Shown here: positions 2,587 through 7,522 of the stretch, one piece after another | How the letters are laid out: each line of letters begins with the position of its first letter | How positions within the stretch are numbered: position 1 is the first letter of the stretch | Source of the DNA: a virus | Virus genome (UHGV): UHGV-1380528 | Strand: one strand, 5' to 3' | Length of the DNA stretch: 47,910 nt | Position numbers and translations under genes: made by a program | Notes under the pieces: model-generated | Database searches by the model: none | What the model saw: only the letters and a program-made list of their open reading frames with translations | Told to the model about the DNA's origin: nothing

Positions 2587-2921
2587 ACTTTCACCTTTAA
2601 TCCATGTTTAGTTAATTCAGATACAACATCATTCTGATCACACAGCAATAGATGCATCTTGCTCAAGTCGACTACTATTTCTTCGCGTGATGATTGCCAA
2701 CCAGACCATACGGCTCTTGTAAGCTCAGAAACGTAGACTCCATTTTCAAACACTGCTAATCCGCCATTTACCAACCCGTTTCTGCATTGGTGCTCAAACC
2801 GCTCTCTACTCGTCATCTTCACTTCCTCCACTATCCACCCCATCTCTCTACGATTATTAGCCGTGCTTTCACAATTGGTGACAAACAGCACGGTTCCTGA
2901 TTTATGCTTTACCGCCCACAT
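2583..2921 (-). CDS. hypothetical protein (112 aa)
   Basis: ORF translationally coupled to neighbours. Confidence 0.4.
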   Translation of the reverse strand: MWAVKHKSGTVLFVTNCESTANNRREMGWIVEEVKMTSRERFEHQCRNGLVNGGLAVFENGVYVSELTRAVWSGWQSSREEIVVDLSKMHLLLCDQNDVVSELTKHGLKVKV

Positions 2922-3397
2922 GACTGACGCGCCCCAGCAAGCAACTTCTCAAACATCATCCTGTCACGGCTCATGCCAAACGGGATAATCTCCTGCCAGT
3001 AATACTTCCATGCTCCGCCGGGGAGCATTTCGCGGTCAACCTGACCAATGCTTGACAGATAGCGCATGCGTGCCTTGAGGATGGTGTAGCTCACGCCAAT
3101 GGCGGATGATATCTGTTTGCTTTTGCTGCCCGGGTGCGCCTCAAGATACGTCTGAATTGCCAAATCGAGCGCGGTATTATCGGGATTGAGGAAATACTTA
3201 AAGCAGCGCCTGCCATAACTGACGCTTTCCTCTTTAATAATAAATCCCATGCTCTCCAGCTCAATCAGATAACCAGTAACACTGGCTCGGTTTGTCATGC
3301 CAGTCTGCTTGCGTATCATGGCATTGGTTGCACCGCCGCAGCGCTCTATCACCGTGAGTATTTGCGTTTTAAAGTCCATTTGCGCGCTCCATTGCAT
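2909..3397 (-). CDS. winged-helix DNA-binding protein (MarR-like); start uncertain (3379/3397/3481)
   Basis: TQILTVIERCGGATNAMIRKQTGMTNRASVTGYLIELESMGFII wHTH-like segment; ORF track start at 3481 overlaps the Lar gene so an internal Met is more likely. Confidence 0.4.
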   Translation of the reverse strand: MQWSAQMDFKTQILTVIERCGGATNAMIRKQTGMTNRASVTGYLIELESMGFIIKEESVSYGRRCFKYFLNPDNTALDLAIQTYLEAHPGSKSKQISSAIGVSYTILKARMRYLSSIGQVDREMLPGGAWKYYWQEIIPFGMSRDRMMFEKLLAGARQSCGR

Positions 3398-3605
3398 CTT
3401 GCTTGTGGTCATCAGCAGTGTAGAGGTGGCCATTTCTGGTATTCCATTTAATGATTGCTGTCGCCGCAACCATCCAGTCATCAGTACGGCAGCCGCAATC
3501 CTGGCATACTACAAAATGCCATTGCCCATCCTTGCTCCGCATGGAATTTTCGCTACCGCAAAACGGACACTCTAGTAATTTCTCATCATTCATCATTGGT
3601 TTCAT
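3369..3605 (-). CDS. lar: Lar-family restriction alleviation protein (zinc ribbon)
   Basis: 78 aa with CPFCG...(x16)...VVCQDCGCRT motif matching Lar family (Rac prophage Lar-like) pattern. Confidence 0.55.
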   Translation of the reverse strand: MKPMMNDEKLLECPFCGSENSMRSKDGQWHFVVCQDCGCRTDDWMVAATAIIKWNTRNGHLYTADDHKQDAMERANGL

Positions 3606-3826
3606 TTTCTCAGCCCATTAATAATAAAAAATTTCATCTGGATATCACAAAGTTTACGCAAAACCATATCCCTGCGATAATCTCGCTTTTTCTTGGGGTT
3701 CAGCATTTGCTTCAACGTTCTGCGGTCAGGCTGGTTTTTCTGCCACGCATGCCTTGCGTTGTCTTCCCTGATGTCAGCCATGATTAACTGAAGCAACGTG
3801 CTGGCCTTGCTCATTTCGCCACCCAT
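3602..3826 (-). CDS. hypothetical basic protein (74 aa)
   Basis: ATGA overlap with lar start. Confidence 0.35.
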   Translation of the reverse strand: MGGEMSKASTLLQLIMADIREDNARHAWQKNQPDRRTLKQMLNPKKKRDYRRDMVLRKLCDIQMKFFIINGLRK

Positions 3827-4002
3827 TCACCAATATTGCTGAAATGCGGGCGCCCCTCGCGCCATTCGATAATTTCGCGGTTAACCTGCCGTTGCATGCG
3901 GTTGCGAACCTCGCGCAATTCGCTTTCAACCCATGATCGAGTGCGGTCGATTTCTTCCAGCTTGTTCAGCAACTCTTTTTCGTATACCTGATCAGTATTC
4001 AT
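3811..4002 (-). CDS. hypothetical protein (63 aa)
   Basis: ORF, coupled. Confidence 0.35.
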   Translation of the reverse strand: MNTDQVYEKELLNKLEEIDRTRSWVESELREVRNRMQRQVNREIIEWREGRPHFSNIGEWVAK

Positions 4003-4234
4003 TTTTTCTCTCCATCAGCATTTTGTAGTGAACTCCATAATACTTGAGCACCTGACTATGGTTGTGCAGATACCCGTCATCATCTTCAATCGGAAGTCTT
4101 ACCACGATGTAAAACGCCCGGTAGAGTTCTGTCCATCCATGACAACATTTGCGCTTCCTCAGCTTCATGGGCGGCCTCCATAGCAGCCAGGTCAATGCGC
4201 TGCTCGATAGATTTAATGATTGACTCTGGCACAT
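3992..4234 (-). CDS. hypothetical protein; overlaps 4086..4302 in another frame (possible frameshift)
   Basis: ORF track; internal Met MKLRKRK at about 4168. Confidence 0.25.
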   Translation of the reverse strand: MCQSQSLNLSSSALTWLLWRPPMKLRKRKCCHGWTELYRAFYIVVRLPIEDDDGYLHNHSQVLKYYGVHYKMLMERKNEY

Positions 4235-4302
4235 TAAGCATTTGCAGAGTCTCCCGGCAATCGCGCTTATGAACCTCTGTCACCTCCTGCCACTTCTTCA
4301 TT
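4086..4302 (-). CDS. hypothetical protein (71 aa, MKKWQEVTEVHKRD...)
   Basis: Internal Met of ORF 4086..4421; first gene leftward of divergent promoter region 4303..4396. Confidence 0.3.
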
Positions 4303-4355
4303 CCACACCACTCCTCGCAAATATGATACAATCTACAACACCTAGTATTGACTAA

Positions 4356-4368
4356 TTGACGTAGATTA
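4356..4368 (+). promoter_or_regulatory. conserved phage promoter-like motif TTGACGTAGATTA
   Basis: Member of 10-copy motif family; 28 nt upstream of ATG 4397; inverted partial copy caatctaca at 4329..4337. Confidence 0.5.
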
Positions 4369-4396
4369 GTCAAGATGATTTCACAGGAGAGCGACA

Positions 4397-4597
4397 ATGG
4401 CGAGACAACGCAAAGAACCACTGGAAGTATTGACTGAGATTATCGCTAAGCGCCAGCCGTTAAGCCTGCGAGATGTCAGATATTACGCGCACTGCTATGT
4501 AGCAATGCGGGAATGGAGCGCCGAAGAAATGTATGCGTTTGTGCGCGAGCATTTCAGCGTAGATGAGAAAAACAAAGTTACGTTGAGAGGTGAGTAA
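4397..4597 (+). CDS. hypothetical protein (66 aa)
   Basis: GGAG RBS; first gene of plus-strand island. Confidence 0.45.
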   Translation: MARQRKEPLEVLTEIIAKRQPLSLRDVRYYAHCYVAMREWSAEEMYAFVREHFSVDEKNKVTLRGE

Positions 4598-5064
4598 TGA
4601 AATACAAATACCATAAAGGAAGTGAAGCTGATTTTGACGGCCATCCAGGCGCCATTCTTGTTGTGAAATCAGAATCCACCGGCAGGGTATACCATCTCGG
4701 TTTGGATTACGCAGGCCGGGATAAGGATATCGAAAAGGTTGGCGACATTATTATCGCTCATCGTGAGCTGGAGCCCGACCCATGGATGCTATTTGAATCC
4801 CCCACAGGACGCCTCATCACCGAGCGCGGAAGCCGCTATGGCAAATTCAAAGACGGCGCGGATATCATGCAGTCACTGAAAGACACCATGCGTGACGTTG
4901 ACGGCTGGAACAACCTGACGGCAAGTCAGAAGGAAGCTCTCGACATGATTCAGCATAAAATCGGTCGAATCCTGAATGGCGACCCGACATACGACGATAG
5001 CTGGAAAGACATTGCTGGCTATGCAACATTAATTGTTAATGAACTGAATGGGGAGGCAAAGTGA
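4597..5064 (+). CDS. hypothetical protein (155 aa)
   Basis: ATGA overlap with upstream gene. Confidence 0.5.
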   Translation: MKYKYHKGSEADFDGHPGAILVVKSESTGRVYHLGLDYAGRDKDIEKVGDIIIAHRELEPDPWMLFESPTGRLITERGSRYGKFKDGADIMQSLKDTMRDVDGWNNLTASQKEALDMIQHKIGRILNGDPTYDDSWKDIAGYATLIVNELNGEAK

Positions 5065-5276
5065 TGCCAATACAAGACCCCGTGCCGCGCATTGAAATTG
5101 ACATGGTAGAGTTACAGGAAACTGCGCAGCGCGATTATCACCTCCCGAGGTTCAGCGAACCAGCAGCCTACATCATCACCAGCAATCGTGGGCGCCGCTA
5201 TCTAGCGTTTGCTGGTAGTGTTGAGCATCAGAACGCAGTTATGTTTGGGTATAAAATGAGGGCTTTATATGAGTAA
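5061..5276 (+). CDS. hypothetical protein (71 aa); C-terminal MFGYKMRALYE duplicated at 5523..5558
   Basis: ORF; overlapping stop/start with neighbours. Confidence 0.45.
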   Translation: MMPIQDPVPRIEIDMVELQETAQRDYHLPRFSEPAAYIITSNRGRRYLAFAGSVEHQNAVMFGYKMRALYE

Positions 5277-5508
5277 CGAAAAGACCGTAAAAGAAATGCA
5301 AAGTGATGAGCGCATCTATTTGCATCTCAGAACCGAGGGTCACGGCGTTTACCTGTTTGACCAACATGGCCGCCGGCTTGGTTGCGTGCAAAGTCAGCAA
5401 ATCAACACTAAATTTGGTGATGTAATAACAGCAACCGTTACCATCGAACTAGCATCGCCAGAATCGGAGGTTGGAGGTAAGCGAGCCTGCGCCACTCATG
5501 GGCATTAA
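5269..5508 (+). CDS. hypothetical protein (79 aa)
   Basis: ORF. Confidence 0.45.
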   Translation: MSNEKTVKEMQSDERIYLHLRTEGHGVYLFDQHGRRLGCVQSQQINTKFGDVITATVTIELASPESEVGGKRACATHGH

Positions 5509-5566
5509 ATAAAACGCGACCATGTTTGGGTATGAAATGAAACCACTGTATGAGTGAGGTGTAAAA

Positions 5567-5821
5567 ATGTCTTTAAGCTTTGGTGAGGCCTTGGAGGAGA
5601 TGGGAATTGGATGCAAGGTAGCAAGAAATGGGTGGAATGGAAAGGGTATGTTCCTGTTCATGATAGCAGGAGGGGCATGGGACTTTGAGTGCGATATTGA
5701 TGGGGTTGACGGGCTTAATACGCTACCTTTTATCTGCATGAAAACGGCTGATGGGAAACTGGTGCCATGGCTGGCAAGCCAAACCGATATGATCGCTAGC
5801 GACTGGATGGTTATTGGTTGA
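5567..5821 (+). CDS. DUF2829 / Tad2-like protein (candidate Thoeris anti-defence, gcADPR sponge)
   Basis: 84 aa; N-terminus MSLSFGEALEEMGIGCKVARNGWNGKGMFLF matches my recollection of the DUF2829 signature (FGEAL..G.KVaR.GWNGKG); GAGGTG RBS; followed by intrinsic terminator. Confidence 0.45.
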   Translation: MSLSFGEALEEMGIGCKVARNGWNGKGMFLFMIAGGAWDFECDIDGVDGLNTLPFICMKTADGKLVPWLASQTDMIASDWMVIG

Positions 5822-5825
5822 CAGA

Positions 5826-5852
5826 AAAGCCCCTTTACGGGGCTTTTTTATT
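5826..5852 (+). terminator. rho-independent terminator
   Basis: agcccctttacggggct hairpin followed by TTTTTT. Confidence 0.7.
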
Positions 5853-5862
5853 ACGGAGGGAG

Positions 5863-5891
5863 TTGACGCAGGGAAAGGTTGTTGCTACTAT
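5863..5891 (+). promoter_or_regulatory. sigma70-like promoter TTGACG-17-TACTAT
   Basis: -35 TTGACG 5863..5868, -10 TACTAT 5886..5891, between two terminators. Confidence 0.4.
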
Positions 5892-5897
5892 TACCTT

Positions 5898-6003
5898 GTT
5901 TAAAAGTAACGACAACGTGAACTTCGGTACATGTTTTCGGGCAGCAGTCGGCGATTCGCACTCGCTGATTCATAAGAAAACCCCTCAATTGAGGGGTTTT
6001 TTA
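5898..6003 (+). ncRNA. candidate small RNA (about 100 nt) between promoter and terminator
   Basis: Promoter at 5863..5891 and intrinsic terminator 5977..6005 bracket about 100 nt with only a 14-codon ORF. Confidence 0.3.
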
Positions 6004-6005
6004 TT
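5977..6005. terminator. bidirectional rho-independent terminator
   Basis: cccctcaattgagggg hairpin flanked by A-run and T-run. Confidence 0.65.
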
Positions 6006-6482
6006 ACTCAGAGAATTGTATTGCGCCTGACAAGTCAATCCTGCCTCTCTTGCTGAGTCAGCATATTCTGCCAGTTGTCTGTTTCTTTCGACAGATTTTC
6101 TGAGCACGTCGGCAAGCAAAACTCCGGTGTTTGAGGCTGGATTGCCAATGGACTCAGAGCGGGAATAATCGACGAGCTGCTTTCTGATTGTGGCGAGCTG
6201 TTGCTGCAACCTGCCAGACTTAACAGCAGCAGCGGAAGCATCAGCACGCGCGGCATCAATGCGGCCTTGCGCTTCCTGCTCGATGGTCTTTTTGTCTTGC
6301 TCATGTTGTTCGCTTGCCTCTTTGTCTTTGACCTTCTGCGCCTCCACGGCTGCCAGATATCCAGAGTTATACTTCTCCTTTCCGTAATTGACCCACTTTC
6401 CGTAGATAATCAGCGCCAGAAGTGCGACGCCGATAATGGCCGCAACAACCTTCCAGTTAGCCTTGAGGATTTGCAGAATCAT
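5985..6482 (-). CDS. i-spanin (Rz-like)
   Basis: 165 aa; N-terminal TM (VVAAIIGVALLALIIYG) plus periplasmic coiled-coil; downstream of endolysin; contains embedded +1 frame lipoprotein gene. Confidence 0.6.
   Translation of the reverse strand: MILQILKANWKVVAAIIGVALLALIIYGKWVNYGKEKYNSGYLAAVEAQKVKDKEASEQHEQDKKTIEQEAQGRIDAARADASAAAVKSGRLQQQLATIRKQLVDYSRSESIGNPASNTGVLLADVLRKSVERNRQLAEYADSAREAGLTCQAQYNSLSNKKPLN
6035..6256 (-). CDS. o-spanin (Rz1-like lipoprotein) embedded in Rz gene
   Basis: MPRVLMLPLLLLSLAGC signal peptide with lipobox; Pro-rich; entirely within i-spanin ORF in another frame. Confidence 0.55.
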   Translation of the reverse strand: MPRVLMLPLLLLSLAGCSNSSPQSESSSSIIPALSPLAIQPQTPEFCLPTCSENLSKETDNWQNMLTQQERQD

Positions 6483-6702
6483 TTTTCAGCGCCTTATTCT
6501 CTTTCTTCATGCCGTGCATCTTCGCAAGCATGGAGATGACCAGCACGGAGTAGCTGATCGCCTTGACCGTAAATGGCGGCAATGCGCTCTTGAGGTCATC
6601 AGGCATCATCATCCAGACCTGCATCGCCACGTCAGGAAATACCTGGAGGGCTGAGCATATTGCCATCCAGATACCGATAAGCCAGTTAGTTAGGCGCCTC
6701 AT
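6457..6702 (-). CDS. two-TM membrane protein, holin/antiholin candidate
   Basis: 81 aa with two predicted TM helices; start overlaps endolysin stop; between endolysin and spanins. Confidence 0.4.
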   Translation of the reverse strand: MRRLTNWLIGIWMAICSALQVFPDVAMQVWMMMPDDLKSALPPFTVKAISYSVLVISMLAKMHGMKKENKALKNDSANPQG

Positions 6703-7133
6703 GACATATAGACCTGACGCTCTGCCGCTCTGCGCTTGGTCAGTCCGTTCATGACCTTGCCATTAGCGCGGTTCCATACCCGGAACTGGTCGGCGGCGCA
6801 GGTATAGCAGCGGGCGTTATGCTTTTTCAGCAGAGTTGATTTGCCAAAGTTACCAAGGCCGATGTTATAGGCCAGCGACACCATTGCATCAAATTGGCCT
6901 TGGGTGGTTGGGGCGGTGATGAGTGACGAAACGCCGCTTTCAAATTTCGCTACGTCGTCACGCAGCATCTTTTCCGCTTGCTGTGCGGTGATAACCATGC
7001 CTGGCTTAACGCCTTTGGTTGTACCGTAACCGATAGTCCAAGGCGCTCCGCCAGTAGCCGGGTCTGGATATGCCTTCGAGCTGTAACCCTCGAATTGTTT
7101 AATTAAATCAATTCCGCGCTGCGATAGTTTCAT
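6699..7133 (-). CDS. endolysin, T4-lysozyme-like (GH24)
   Basis: 144 aa; GIDLIKQFEGYSSKAYPD...TIGYGTT lysozyme motifs. Confidence 0.8.
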   Translation of the reverse strand: MKLSQRGIDLIKQFEGYSSKAYPDPATGGAPWTIGYGTTKGVKPGMVITAQQAEKMLRDDVAKFESGVSSLITAPTTQGQFDAMVSLAYNIGLGNFGKSTLLKKHNARCYTCAADQFRVWNRANGKVMNGLTKRRAAERQVYMS

Positions 7134-7184
7134 TTGTTACCTCCGGTGATGCAGATTATTTTATCATAATCCTATTGACGTAGA

Positions 7185-7197
7185 TTGAATCGTAGGA
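7185..7197 (+). promoter_or_regulatory. conserved promoter-like motif TTGACGTAGATTG
   Basis: 35 nt upstream of ATG 7232; second half-site gatgtagtt at 7211..7219. Confidence 0.5.
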
Positions 7198-7231
7198 GAT
7201 GATGTAGTTACACAAACACAGGGGATTCAAG

Positions 7232-7522
7232 ATGAAAAAATTTATCGCAGTGGCAGTATTCGCAATGGCTTCATTTGGTGCATCGGCTGGTGAAGTGTGC
7301 AACAAAGTTGGTGATGTTGGGTTCGCCGCGGCTGATGCTCGTGATTCCGGCGTACCTCAGAGCATAGCAATGGCGGTAGCACAAAGTCCTGAGTACGGTG
7401 TGGATGCCAACAAGGTGCTTGGTGCAACAGTGAAGATGGCCTACTCAATGCCGAACAAGACACCGAAAGAAATTAAAGCAATCACCATTGCTCTTTGCGT
7501 ATCAAGCATGGGTGACTTGTGA
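7232..7522 (+). CDS. secreted small protein (96 aa, Sec signal peptide)
   Basis: MKKFIAVAVFAMASFGASA signal peptide; first gene after motif. Confidence 0.5.
   Translation: MKKFIAVAVFAMASFGASAGEVCNKVGDVGFAAADARDSGVPQSIAMAVAQSPEYGVDANKVLGATVKMAYSMPNKTPKEIKAITIALCVSSMGDL

What the first reader, a model, noticed from the sequence alone, without database searches (positions are those of the whole stretch)
5231..5821. Tad2-like (DUF2829) candidate anti-Thoeris gene at a duplicated linker junction
The 84-aa product of 5567..5821 begins MSLSFGEALEEMGIGCKVARNGWNGKGMF. As I recall this matches the DUF2829 signature of Tad2 proteins, which sequester the gcADPR signal of Thoeris. Just upstream, the 3' end of gene 5061..5276 (ATGTTTGGGTATAAAATGA...TATGAGTAA) is repeated at 5521..5558 (ATGTTTGGGTATGAAATGA...TATGAGTGA). 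The repeat leaves an 11-codon remnant and a 2-codon dead start. This looks like the scar of modular gene exchange by recombination at a conserved linker.
Basis: partly seen in the sequence, partly recalled or inferred. Interest (0 to 1): 0.6.

Follow-up and report, generated by a model that had tools for sequence, protein, structure and literature searches.

The report
Tad2 sponge gene in swap slot
A Klebsiella-type phage carries a small gene of the known Tad2 family, whose members soak up the alarm molecule of the bacterial Thoeris defence, and the duplicated 36-43 bases just upstream are a genuine recombination scar from stacking two accessory genes in one hypervariable slot; this is a tidy example of known biology, not a new kind of system.

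Summary
Both halves of the finding hold.

**Tad2 assignment.** ORF 5567..5821 (84 aa) is a full-length Tad2-like/DUF2829 protein.
- Pfam PF11195 scores 86 bits against a cut-off of 25.
- phmmer E-values to solved Tad2 structures are 1e-16 to 1e-18.
- The AlphaFold model (pLDDT 94) has its 24 best PDB matches all in Tad2 structures.
- The gcADPR-pocket residues are conserved.
- The insertion that binds cyclic dinucleotides in HgmTad2 is absent.

**Repeat.** The true coordinates are 5241..5276 and 5522..5557, with 28 of 36 bases identical. The two copies encode MFGYKMRALYE* and MFGYEMKPLYE*. Copy 2 plus its 9-nt spacer matches, at 51 of 54 bases, the 3' end of the upstream gene "X" as it sits before Tad2 in relatives.

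**Locus survey.**
- Across 42 related loci the slot after X is empty or holds one of at least 7 cargos. Tad2 is in 5 of them.
- The window stacks a 79-aa gene (g79) in front of Tad2.
- The same arrangement occurs at 100% identity in independent assemblies.
- Another phage has g79 plus the remnant followed by a different gene.

Anti-Thoeris activity is inferred, not shown. Verdict: a new member of a known kind, of modest interest.

The parts
5064..5276 (+). Gene X. It is 70 aa from ATG 5064, or 71 aa from GTG 5061. Function unknown. It is the last conserved gene of the small + strand operon that starts at 4397. Its C-terminal half is the left anchor of the cargo slot.
   Evidence: ORF list. tblastn finds it in all 42 related loci. 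PHROG 34266 matches only residues 33-71. There is no Pfam hit.
5157..5236 (+). Island of 92-96% nucleotide conservation across 43 loci, inside gene X. This is the homologous substrate for crossovers on the left of the slot.
   Evidence: Anchored column-identity profile. 60-nt windows across 5140-5259 hit 40-42 of 42 loci, against 16-25 loci upstream and 1-5 loci in the cargo.
5232..5276 (+). Linker copy 1: the 3' end of X (…MFGYKMRALYE*). Its stop codon overlaps the g79 start (TATGAGTAA).
   Evidence: The tail is identical to that in loci carrying a 58-aa cargo (L005, L026, L028).
5269..5508 (+). g79, a 79-aa cargo gene of unknown function that sits between the two linker copies.
   Evidence: No hit in Pfam or NCBIfam, and only a weak PHROG hit (phrog_38236, E 0.0011, unknown function). 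Only 5 protein clusters found among 5.8 billion. 91% identical to a Klebsiella phage ZCKp20p protein. Remote homology to the 71-aa cargo family: hhalign probability 93.5%, E 2e-7. The AF2 model is weak (pLDDT 64.6) and has no fold match.
5511..5524 (+). Right-hand junction, AAAACGCGACCATG. This patch of microhomology is where the sequence downstream of g79 joins the 3' end of a second X gene.
   Evidence: Window has TAAATAAAACGCGACCATGTTTGG. ZCKp20p has TAAATAAAAACGGCCATGCC. Tad2-carrying loci have CCAAAACGCG(G/A)CCATGTTTGG.
5513..5557 (+). Linker copy 2: a remnant of the 3' end of a second X gene. The 11-codon ORF 5522..5557 reads MFGYEMKPLYE*.
   Evidence: 51 of 54 bases match the X tail plus spacer of Tbat1_6. 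It is 99.2% identical in L054, where divergence starts immediately after …CCACTGTATG.
5550..5564 (+). Dead start, ATGAGTGAGGTGTAA (MSEV*). It is the counterpart of the g79 start in copy 1.
5556..5561 (+). Shine-Dalgarno-like GAGGTG, 5 nt before the Tad2 ATG. It lies inside the linker, across the remnant's stop codon.
   Evidence: Read directly from the sequence. It is conserved in all Tad2-carrying loci. The region has no significant RNA structure (z = +1.2).
5567..5821 (+). Tad2-like (DUF2829) gene, 84 aa. Predicted sponge for a TIR-made immune signal.
   Evidence: Pfam PF11195, E 2.5e-24, 86 bits against a 25-bit cut-off, profile positions 2-73 of 73. PDB phmmer and profile hits to HgmTad2, ModTad2, SptTad2 and SPO1 Tad2. 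AF2 pLDDT 94.2, with the top 24 Foldseek hits all Tad2. 100% identical to the 'DUF2829' protein of Tbat1_6.
5823..5853 (+). Intrinsic terminator of the operon: an AAAAGCCCC/GGGGCUUUU hairpin followed by a U-run. It is conserved in about 40 of 42 loci and forms the right anchor of the slot.
   Evidence: strand folding gives -16.3 kcal/mol, z = -5.6. Conservation. The pattern scanner missed it.

Best explanation
**The gene (function inferred).** 5567..5821 encodes a short-form member of the Tad2 family of phage counter-defence sponges. By analogy with SPO1 Tad2 and HgmTad2 it should form a homotetramer. Two inter-dimer pockets would enclose the TIR-made Thoeris signal, most likely 1''-3' gcADPR (3'cADPR). 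The ThsA effector would then never be activated and the infected cell would not shut down. Family membership, fold and pocket residues are shown here; oligomeric state, ligand and phenotype are not.

**Its position.** It is the last gene of a five-gene + strand operon (4397..5821) that ends in a strong terminator. It lies in an accessory region that also encodes a Lar-like restriction-alleviation protein.

**The repeat.** The repeat upstream is a recombination scar. In this phage group, the conserved 3' end of gene X on one side and the operon terminator on the other bracket a hypervariable cargo slot. An X-g79 phage and an X-Tad2 phage recombined unequally. The crossover was in the short microhomology AAAACG(C)G(A/G)CCATG, between the DNA just downstream of g79 and the 3' end of the other parent's X. 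The product is X-g79-[last 11 codons of X']-Tad2.

**Consequence.** The retained remnant carries Tad2's ribosome-binding site, so Tad2 remains expressible. The phage now carries two cargo genes instead of one.
For: **Tad2 membership**
- PF11195 at 86 bits against a 25-bit cut-off, covering the whole domain.
- phmmer E-values of 3e-18 to 1e-15 to HgmTad2/AcrIIA7, ModTad2, SptTad2 and SPO1 Tad2. The profile search gives 1e-26 to 5e-23.
- AF2 pLDDT 94.2. Foldseek ranks 1-24 are all Tad2 structures, with TM 0.70-0.81; the next hit has E 0.68.

**Ligand pocket**
- HgmTad2 residues W21 N22 G23 and W87 L88 S90 T92 D93 align to W23 N24 G25 and W68 L69 S71 T73 D74 here. Mutating them abolishes gcADPR binding (PMC10680739; alignments).
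- SPO1 Tad2 contacts W25 N26 W73 S76 T78 D79 map, by motif position rather than by a printed alignment, to the same residues.
- These positions are invariant or at least 90% conserved in 78 homologues.

**Precedent.** 4 of 5 diverse Tad2 homologues inhibited type I Thoeris (10.1101/2023.05.01.538930).

**Scar**
- The remnant equals the X tail plus spacer of Tad2-carrying relatives at 51 of 54 bases.
- ZCKp20p has X-g79 without Tad2. Tbat1_6 and four IMG/VR loci have X-Tad2 without g79.
- The slot has at least 7 alternative cargos.
- Tad2 is 98.8-100% identical at the amino-acid level in backgrounds whose flanking genes are 56-97% identical.
- Conserved anchors flank the slot.
- L054 shares g79 plus remnant at 99.2% identity, then switches to a g71-family gene right after the remnant.
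- The identical arrangement occurs in at least 4 independent samples.

**Context.** Lar-like PF14354 at 3369..3605(-). Terminator at 5823..5853.
Against: - No experiment on this protein or on any close (>45% identical) homologue was found.
- Tad2 homologues are functionally diverse. ModTad2 binds His-ADPR and cUMP but does not inhibit type I Thoeris. Others inhibit type IV Thoeris, CBASS or Pycsar (PMC12393519). The ligand therefore cannot be read from family membership alone.
- The window protein is about equally distant (36-44% identity) from all solved Tad2s.
- Tetramer formation was not modelled.
- I did not establish whether the natural hosts carry Thoeris.
- Only two parental types were sampled, and the X tail of the sampled g79 parent (ZCKp20p, …ILFNYTTRALYE*) differs from the window's (…MFGYKMRALYE*). 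The exact parents and the number of crossovers (one unequal, or two) are not resolved.
Confidence: 0.72

Rival explanations
1. The protein is a Tad2-family sponge, but its natural ligand is not gcADPR. It would instead sequester another immune signal: His-ADPR (type II Thoeris), N7-cADPR (type IV Thoeris), cUMP/cCMP (Pycsar) or a CBASS cyclic dinucleotide.
For: Of 18 Tad2 homologues tested, different members inhibited CBASS, Pycsar and Thoeris types I, II and IV, and some inhibited several (PMC12393519). ModTad2 does not inhibit type I Thoeris (10.1101/2024.01.03.573942). ModTad2 is one of the two best sequence and fold matches.
Against: - The C-terminal pocket motif here, PWLASQTDM, matches the gcADPR binders HgmTad2 and SptTad2 (GWLASQTDM). 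It does not match ModTad2's TWTPSVSDI.
- The long beta2-beta5 insertion that forms the cyclic-dinucleotide pocket of HgmTad2 and SptTad2 is missing, seen as a 20-residue gap.
- HgmTad2's R31 and N85 are I33 and a deletion here.
- A second pocket like MoTad2's cUMP site cannot be excluded.
Confidence: 0.2
2. The protein acts as an anti-CRISPR of the AcrIIA7 type, inhibiting Cas9, rather than as a signal sponge.
For: The best PDB sequence hit is deposited as 'Inhibitor of Type II CRISPR-Cas system' / AcrIIA7 (8kbi, 9kzr). A DUF2829 protein was originally reported as AcrIIA7 (as cited in 10.1101/2023.05.01.538930).
Against: That same protein (HgmTad2) was later shown to be a gcADPR/cGG sponge. 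No binding to Cas9 was demonstrated. From my own knowledge, not tested here, Klebsiella and its enterobacterial relatives generally carry type I rather than type II-A CRISPR systems.
Confidence: 0.03
3. The duplication is a target-site-like footprint of a dedicated mobility mechanism, not of general or illegitimate phage-phage recombination. For example, double-strand breaks made by the homing HNH endonucleases that frequent this locus could be repaired from a co-infecting genome, or g79 could be a self-mobile cassette.
For: - HNH/AP2-type endonuclease genes occupy the same slot in L018, directly after X with the same ATGAGTAA overlap.
- They also occupy the adjacent slot in L035 and Seszw_1, and lie nearby in L043 and L048.
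- A second module in the window, 5851..6003, is also flanked by a duplicated linker (D2).
- The g79+remnant module travels as a unit.
Against: - g79 has no nuclease, integrase or transposase signature.
- The two repeat copies differ at 8 of 36 positions, and each matches a different natural X allele. This is what is expected from two parental genomes, not from duplication of one target site.
- No endonuclease gene lies in this slot in the window.
Confidence: 0.12
4. The repeat is a chance similarity or an assembly artefact.
For: 28/36 identity is only just beyond the best value in shuffles, which was 27. The window comes from a metagenome assembly.
Against: - The remnant is collinear with the X tail, spacer and Tad2 of relatives at 51 of 54 bases.
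- The peptide-level similarity is in frame.
- The identical arrangement appears in four independently assembled samples from three pipelines.
- A related arrangement appears in a divergent phage.
Confidence: 0.02

Closest known systems
SPO1 Tad2 (gp34.65; PDB 8SME/8SMF/8SMG), the founding anti-Thoeris sponge
   Same: - Single DUF2829 domain of about 85-90 aa, with the same fold (TM 0.70-0.78, 38-44% identity).
- Short beta2-beta5 insertion.
- The ligand contacts W25, N26, W73, S76, T78 and D79 have identical counterparts here: W23, N24, W68, S71, T73 and D74.
- Phage-encoded.
   Different: - Host is an enterobacterial siphovirus, not a Bacillus myovirus.
- H71 corresponds to V66 and I63 to M58.
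- No biochemical data exist for this protein.
- Sequence identity is only about 40%.
HgmTad2 / AcrIIA7 (PDB 8KBI-8KBM, 8WJC) and SptTad2 (8WJD), sponges for both gcADPR and cyclic dinucleotides
   Same: HgmTad2 is the best sequence match (E 3e-18). The GWNGKGMF and WLASQTDM pocket motifs are identical in both; HgmTad2 binds both 1''-2' and 1''-3' gcADPR.
   Different: The window protein lacks the 35-41-residue insertion that builds the cGG/cGAMP pocket, seen as a 20-residue gap. It also lacks R31, S47, F70 and N85. It is therefore predicted not to bind cyclic dinucleotides at that site.
ModTad2 (PDB 8V3E/9EIB), a type II Thoeris (His-ADPR) and Pycsar (cUMP) sponge
   Same: Similar length (88 aa), ungapped-like alignment over the whole protein (E 2e-17), and the top Foldseek hit.
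   Different: The C-terminal pocket motif differs (TWTPSVSD against PWLASQTD). ModTad2 does not inhibit type I Thoeris.
Mosaic 'moron'/module boundaries of tailed phages (modular theory; conserved boundary or linker sequences described in lambdoid phages). This comparison rests on my own knowledge.
   Same: Conserved flanks bracket alternative, unrelated small genes at one genome position. Exchange occurs at gene boundaries. The cargo carries its own translation signals and the slot ends at a terminator.
   Different: Here the left 'linker' is the coding 3' end of a gene, and the stacking event left both copies visible. A second phage shows the scar itself being reused as a crossover point.

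Membership tests
Tad2 (Thoeris anti-defence 2; Pfam PF11195 / DUF2829) | Tad2-like/DUF2829 domain above Pfam's gathering score, covering the whole domain | tested here: met
   86 bits against a 25-bit cut-off, E 2.5e-24, profile positions 2-73 of 73, protein residues 4-83.
Tad2 (Thoeris anti-defence 2; Pfam PF11195 / DUF2829) | Sequence homology to experimentally characterised Tad2 proteins | tested here: met
   phmmer: HgmTad2 3e-18, ModTad2 2e-17, SptTad2 6e-16, SPO1 Tad2 8.5e-16. The profile search gives 1e-26 to 5e-23.
Tad2 (Thoeris anti-defence 2; Pfam PF11195 / DUF2829) | Tad2 fold: an N-terminal helix, an antiparallel beta sheet and a C-terminal short helix | tested here: met
   AF2 pLDDT 94.2, pTM 0.82, with elements H5-13, E17-20, E29-33, E55-59, E65-67, H72-76, E80-83. 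The 24 best Foldseek PDB hits are all Tad2, with TM 0.70-0.81.
Tad2 (Thoeris anti-defence 2; Pfam PF11195 / DUF2829) | Conserved gcADPR-pocket residues: the W-N-G loop, plus W, S, T and D of the C-terminal motif | tested here: met
   W23 N24 G25 and W68 L69 S71 T73 D74 align with HgmTad2 W21 N22 G23 and W87 L88 S90 T92 D93. SPO1 W25 N26 W73 S76 T78 D79 map by motif position. The positions are invariant or at least 90% conserved in 78 homologues.
Tad2 (Thoeris anti-defence 2; Pfam PF11195 / DUF2829) | Homotetramer with two inter-dimer ligand pockets | not testable with these tools
   Only monomer prediction is available.
Tad2 (Thoeris anti-defence 2; Pfam PF11195 / DUF2829) | Binds and sequesters the TIR-made signal and relieves Thoeris defence | not testable with these tools
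   This needs biochemistry and infection assays. No paper testing this protein was found.
HgmTad2-type dual sponge (gcADPR plus cyclic dinucleotides) | Long (35-41 aa) insertion between beta2 and beta5 that forms the cyclic-dinucleotide pocket, with R31, S47, F70 and N85 | tested here: not met
   The window protein has about 21 residues between the strands (34-54). HgmTad2 shows a 20-residue insertion relative to this clade's profile. R31 corresponds to I33, and the N85 position is deleted.
ModTad2 clade (His-ADPR / type II Thoeris sponge) | Clade membership and pocket composition like ModTad2 | tested here: inconclusive
   It is equally distant from all solved Tad2s (36-44% identity). The pocket motif PWLASQTD resembles HgmTad2/SptTad2 rather than ModTad2's TWTPSVSD. 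His-ADPR contact residues were not available in the held text.
AcrIIA7 anti-CRISPR | Inhibition of type II-A Cas9 | not testable with these tools
   It shares only the DUF2829 domain. The literature re-interprets AcrIIA7 as a Tad2 sponge.
Phage mosaic module junction (cargo slot with conserved flanks) | Alternative unrelated genes at the same position in related genomes, between conserved flanks | tested here: met
   The slot is empty or holds Tad2, g79, g71, a 58-aa gene, a 54-aa gene or a 167-aa HNH gene. Flanks are 92-96% conserved across 43 loci.
Phage mosaic module junction (cargo slot with conserved flanks) | Each copy of the duplicated linker matches a different natural allele, which indicates two parents | tested here: met
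   Copy 1 matches the KMRALYE*-type tail of L005, L026 and L028. Copy 2 matches the EMKPLYE*-type tail that precedes Tad2 in L001, L012, L025, L036 and L037.

The most novel reading that the evidence does not exclude
The conserved 3' end of gene X and the operon terminator may delimit a dedicated counter-defence cargo slot. Short linkers would let co-infecting phages swap and also stack small anti-defence genes. On this reading the other occupants are themselves undescribed anti-defence proteins: the remotely related g79 and g71 families, and the 58-aa and 54-aa genes. The retained linker scars would remain active recombination substrates, possibly stimulated by the HNH homing endonucleases that frequent the locus.
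Probability: 0.25. Interest if true: 0.55.

Novelty: new member of a known kind. Interest (0 to 1): 0.3.

Why it matters
- **Annotation.** The gene should be annotated as a Tad2-family sponge. The identical protein in GenBank (Flyfo siphovirus Tbat1_6) is labelled only 'protein of unknown function DUF2829'.
- **Phage therapy.** This phage group infects Klebsiella, Salmonella and their relatives. Knowing which isolates carry a Thoeris counter-defence is relevant to host range.
- **Gene discovery.** The locus shows, at base-pair resolution, how a phage gains a second accessory gene without losing the first. It also flags the small ORFan families that share Tad2's slot (g79, g71, the 58-aa and 54-aa genes) as inexpensive candidates for anti-defence screens.
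- **Limits.** None of this changes current concepts.

Tried and rejected
- **RNA structure in the linker.** Folding 5500-5600, its Tbat1_6 counterpart and 5225-5300 gave z-scores of +0.8 to +1.2. The linker is not a structured RNA element and the RBS is open.
- **Rfam over 3300-7400.** Only sub-threshold hits: Phe_leader, rsmX, Leu_leader.
- **Function of g79.** It had no hit in Pfam or NCBIfam and only a weak PHROG hit (phrog_38236, E 0.0011, unknown function). BLASTP against the 71-aa cargo found nothing; only profile-profile comparison did. The AF2 model is poor (pLDDT 64.6) and Foldseek found nothing with E below 3.
- **NCBIfam.** It has no model for the Tad2-like protein.
- **The junction elsewhere.** An exact-junction search in IMG/VR found nothing. 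No GenBank phage record covers at least 80% of 5200-5620. The stacked arrangement was found only by exact-protein look-up.
- **Terminators.** The consensus terminator scan missed both strong hairpins at 5823-5850 and 5975-6003.
- **Noncoding module 5851-6003.** A covariation test on 6 sequences found no compensatory pairs.
- **Literature.** I found no Tad2 test in Klebsiella phages and no ModTad2 His-ADPR contact residues. No supplementary tables are held for PMC12393519.
Full report
**Observation**

The repeat exists.
- Copy 1 is 5241..5276, the last 11 codons plus stop of gene X (5061/5064..5276).
- Copy 2 is 5522..5557.
- 28 of 36 bases match. In the same frame the copies read MFGYKMRALYE* and MFGYEMKPLYE*.
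- The repeat finder extends the pair to 43 nt at 74% identity.
- It is the best local 36-nt direct repeat in the whole window. No Markov shuffle out of 30 reached it, though the margin is small at 28 against 27.

The 'dead start' at 5550 is ATG AGT GAG GTG TAA, which is four codons, not two.

**What the protein is**

- Pfam PF11195 (Tad2-like, formerly DUF2829) matches end to end at 86 bits, against a 25-bit cut-off.
- Against PDB sequences, the only significant hits are HgmTad2/AcrIIA7, ModTad2, SptTad2 and SPO1 Tad2. E-values are 3e-18 to 1e-15 with the single sequence and 1e-26 to 5e-23 with a 78-sequence profile.
- An AlphaFold2 model built on that alignment is confident (pLDDT 94.2, pTM 0.82).
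- Foldseek places all 24 significant PDB matches in Tad2 structures, with TM 0.70-0.81. The next hit has E = 0.68.

The residues that hold gcADPR are conserved.
- In HgmTad2 they are W21, N22, G23, W87, L88, S90, T92 and D93. Mutating them abolishes binding (PMC10680739).
- They align to W23, N24, G25, W68, L69, S71, T73 and D74 here.
- The SPO1 Tad2 contacts W25, N26, W73, S76, T78 and D79 (10.1101/2023.05.01.538930) map by motif position to the same residues.
- All these positions are invariant or at least 90% conserved among 78 homologues.

The 35-41-residue beta2-beta5 insertion is absent. In HgmTad2 and SptTad2 it builds a second pocket for cyclic dinucleotides. Here it appears as a 20-residue gap, R31 corresponds to I33, and the N85 position is deleted. 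This is therefore a short, SPO1-like Tad2.

The identical protein is annotated only as 'protein of unknown function DUF2829' in Flyfo siphovirus Tbat1_6. Its 90%-identity cluster has 197 member sequences.

**Genomic context**

The window is a roughly 48-kb siphovirus genome. Its closest relatives are Tbat1_6 and a group of Klebsiella phages (KP591P1, the VLCpiS13 series, ZCKp20p), at about 90% identity over about 73% of the first 25 kb. It is 100% identical to ENA contig ERZ27304535 k141_5039.

The Tad2-like gene ends a five-gene + strand operon.
- The genes are g66, g155 (DUF6378-like), X, g79 and Tad2, spanning 4397..5821.
- The first four genes have overlapping stop and start codons. Tad2 follows g79's stop after the 58-nt remnant.
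- The operon terminates in a strong hairpin with a U-run at 5823..5853 (-16.3 kcal/mol, z = -5.6).

Upstream and divergently transcribed lie a Lar-like restriction-alleviation gene (PF14354, 3369..3605) and a DUF7301 gene. Downstream on the minus strand is the lysis cassette: DUF2514 spanin, DUF7940 holin-like protein and lysozyme.

**What the repeat is**

I compared 42 related loci from GenBank and IMG/VR, plus 14 found by exact-protein look-up.

The C-terminal half of X is an island of 92-96% nucleotide conservation in all of them (5157..5236). The sequence on either side varies.

Immediately after X the genomes diverge into a slot with these states:
- empty, with about 42 nt to the spanin stop codon;
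- Tad2, in 5 of 42 loci;
- a 71-aa gene (g71), in 7 loci;
- g79, in ZCKp20p only;
- a 58-aa gene, in 3 loci;
- a 54-aa gene, in 2-3 loci;
- a 167-aa HNH/AP2-type endonuclease, in 1 locus.

The last few codons of X co-vary with the cargo.
- The tail is …KMEALYA* when the slot is empty.
- It is …EMKPLYE* before Tad2.
- It is …EMKPLYEDLK* before g71.
- It is …RALYE*, overlapping ATGAGTAA, before g79 and before the 58-aa gene.

Wherever Tad2 is present without g79, it starts 9 nt after the X stop. It is preceded by …ATGTTTGG(G/C)TATGA(A/G)A(T/C)GAAACCACTATACGA(A/G)TGAGGTGTAAAA. Window 5513..5566 is that sequence with 3 differences in 54.

The window is therefore X – g79 – last 11 codons of a second X allele – Tad2.
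- Copy 1 matches the allele that goes with ATGAGTAA-type cargos. It is 100% identical to L005 over 47-52 nt.
- Copy 2 matches the Tad2-associated allele.
- Two different natural alleles point to two parental genomes, not to duplication of one target.

The right junction lies in a short microhomology. ZCKp20p has TAAATAAAAACGGCCATGCC downstream of g79. Tad2-type X genes have CCAAAACGCG(A/G)CCATGTTTGG. The window has TAAATAAAACGCGACCATGTTTGG. A single unequal crossover there gives the observed structure. The alternative, two crossovers inserting g79 into an X-Tad2 genome, is not excluded.

The remnant retains GAGGTG, 5 nt before the Tad2 ATG, so Tad2 keeps its ribosome-binding site. The region has no significant RNA structure.

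**Is it real, and is the linker used again?**

The exact arrangement is present at 100% identity in contigs from four different samples and three assembly pipelines: ENA, Logan (twice) and JGI.

L054 (ERR11042386) is a different phage, 89-93% identical elsewhere.
- It shares window 5157..5552 at 99.2% identity. That stretch covers the X tail, g79 and the remnant.
- It diverges immediately after …CCACTGTATG into a g71-family gene.
- So the g79+remnant module occurs with two different downstream cargos, and the breakpoint is inside the scar.

The remnant also shares two diagnostic bases, CTG TAT, with L054. All Tad2-associated X tails have CTA TAC there. This is thin evidence that Tad2 and g71 were exchanged behind an already existing g79+remnant module.

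Tad2 itself is 98.8-100% identical at the amino-acid level in backgrounds whose neighbouring genes are only 56-97% identical. This is consistent with recent horizontal spread of the cassette.

**Mechanism and its limits**

Shown here:
- family membership, fold and pocket conservation;
- operon position;
- the mosaic structure, the two parental linker alleles, recurrence in independent samples and reuse of the scar.

Inferred:
- tetramer formation;
- sequestration of 3'cADPR and relief of type I Thoeris;
- early expression;
- the single-crossover history.

The ligand is the main uncertainty. Four of five diverse homologues inhibited type I Thoeris. But ModTad2 binds His-ADPR and cUMP instead, and other homologues inhibit type IV Thoeris, CBASS or Pycsar. 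The pocket motif here, PWLASQTD, is that of the gcADPR binders HgmTad2 and SptTad2, not ModTad2's TWTPSVSD. I therefore rate gcADPR as most likely, at about 0.7.

**Comparison and novelty**

This is a new, untested member of the well-described Tad2 family. It sits at a mosaic junction of the kind long known in tailed phages. Neither element is new in kind.

The locus has two uses. It is a clean, base-resolved example of cargo stacking at a coding 'linker'. It also points to the small ORFan families that share Tad2's slot as candidate anti-defence genes. The g79 and g71 families are remote homologues (hhalign probability 93.5%, E 2e-7).

Interest is 0.3.

Noticed in passing
window 5851..6003: A noncoding module of about 150 nt lies between the Tad2 terminator and the spanin stop codon.
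- It has a promoter-like TTGACG-17-TGCTACTAT at 5863..5891, followed by about 110 nt that fold into three hairpins. The last hairpin is a terminator (-38.4 kcal/mol, z = -4.8).
- It is absent from all 42 Klebsiella-type relatives.
- It is 83-92% identical over its full length in 75 Salmonella, Shigella and Escherichia phage records (Skatevirus, Deseoctovirus DS8, Bas81), again next to the spanin gene.
- Both promoter hexamers are invariant in 6 phages while the spacer varies.
- Single-base indels, and loss of the minus-strand ATG in DS8 and Seszw_1, argue against the 40-45-aa ORF annotated there in some records.
- No Rfam family matches, and the 6 sequences show no compensatory pairs.

This is a candidate phage small RNA; it remains unresolved.
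   Followed up: partly
window 5840..5865 and 5993..6018: A second duplicated linker: GGGCTTTTTTATTACGGAGGGAGTTG against GGGGTTTTTTATTACTCAGAGAATTG, at 81% identity and 153-nt spacing. The terminator tail is repeated on both sides of the noncoding module. That module therefore looks like another stacked insertion, of the same style as g79.
   Followed up: partly
window 5269..5508; L002 2386..2601; L054 1795..2010: g79 and the 71-aa cargo family (MTVQAAKDPGKIWLHQ… / MNIQNARNKDNIWLH…) are remote homologues. hhalign gives probability 93.5%, E 2e-7, over 55 columns, although BLASTP sees nothing. L054 carries one of each in tandem. The g79 family is tiny, with 5 clusters among 5.8 billion proteins. 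Its function is unknown.
   Followed up: partly
L018 ~2708..3211 (+); L035 ~2695..3204 (-); L043/L048 861..1376 (-); L060 637..1137 (-): HNH/AP2-type homing endonuclease genes recur in or beside the same cargo slots in relatives. In L018 the gene follows X directly, with the same ATGAGTAA stop-start overlap. They could supply the double-strand breaks that drive exchange here.
   Followed up: no
L003 (Klebsiella phage ZCKp20p) ~2723..2800: The sequence downstream of g79 in ZCKp20p aligns better than any of 500 shuffles (score 35 against 11 +/- 6) with the window's junction plus remnant. This may be a degenerate older copy of the same X-tail scar.
   Followed up: partly
window 3369..3605 (-) and 3602..3826 (-): A Lar-like restriction-alleviation protein (PF14354, 43.9 bits) and a DUF7301 protein lie in the divergently transcribed block next to the Tad2 operon. 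The region therefore looks like an accessory or counter-defence neighbourhood.
   Followed up: no
window 4597..5156: g155 (weak DUF6378 match, 26.2 bits against a 27.1-bit cut-off) and the N-terminal half of X are themselves mosaic among relatives. g155 is 56-97% identical at the amino-acid level and varies in length. In 17 of 39 IMG/VR loci only residues 19-34 onward of X are recognisable.
   Followed up: no
second slot between the operon terminator and the spanin gene, e.g. L001 2742..2897 (-), L012 ~3013..3156 (-), L026 ~2819..3160 (-): Relatives carry alternative small minus-strand genes at the position where the window has the noncoding module. These are 47-51-aa genes (MLNKEKREEYDR… or MSDEVKKAKALLRDDD…) or a 113-aa gene.
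   Followed up: no
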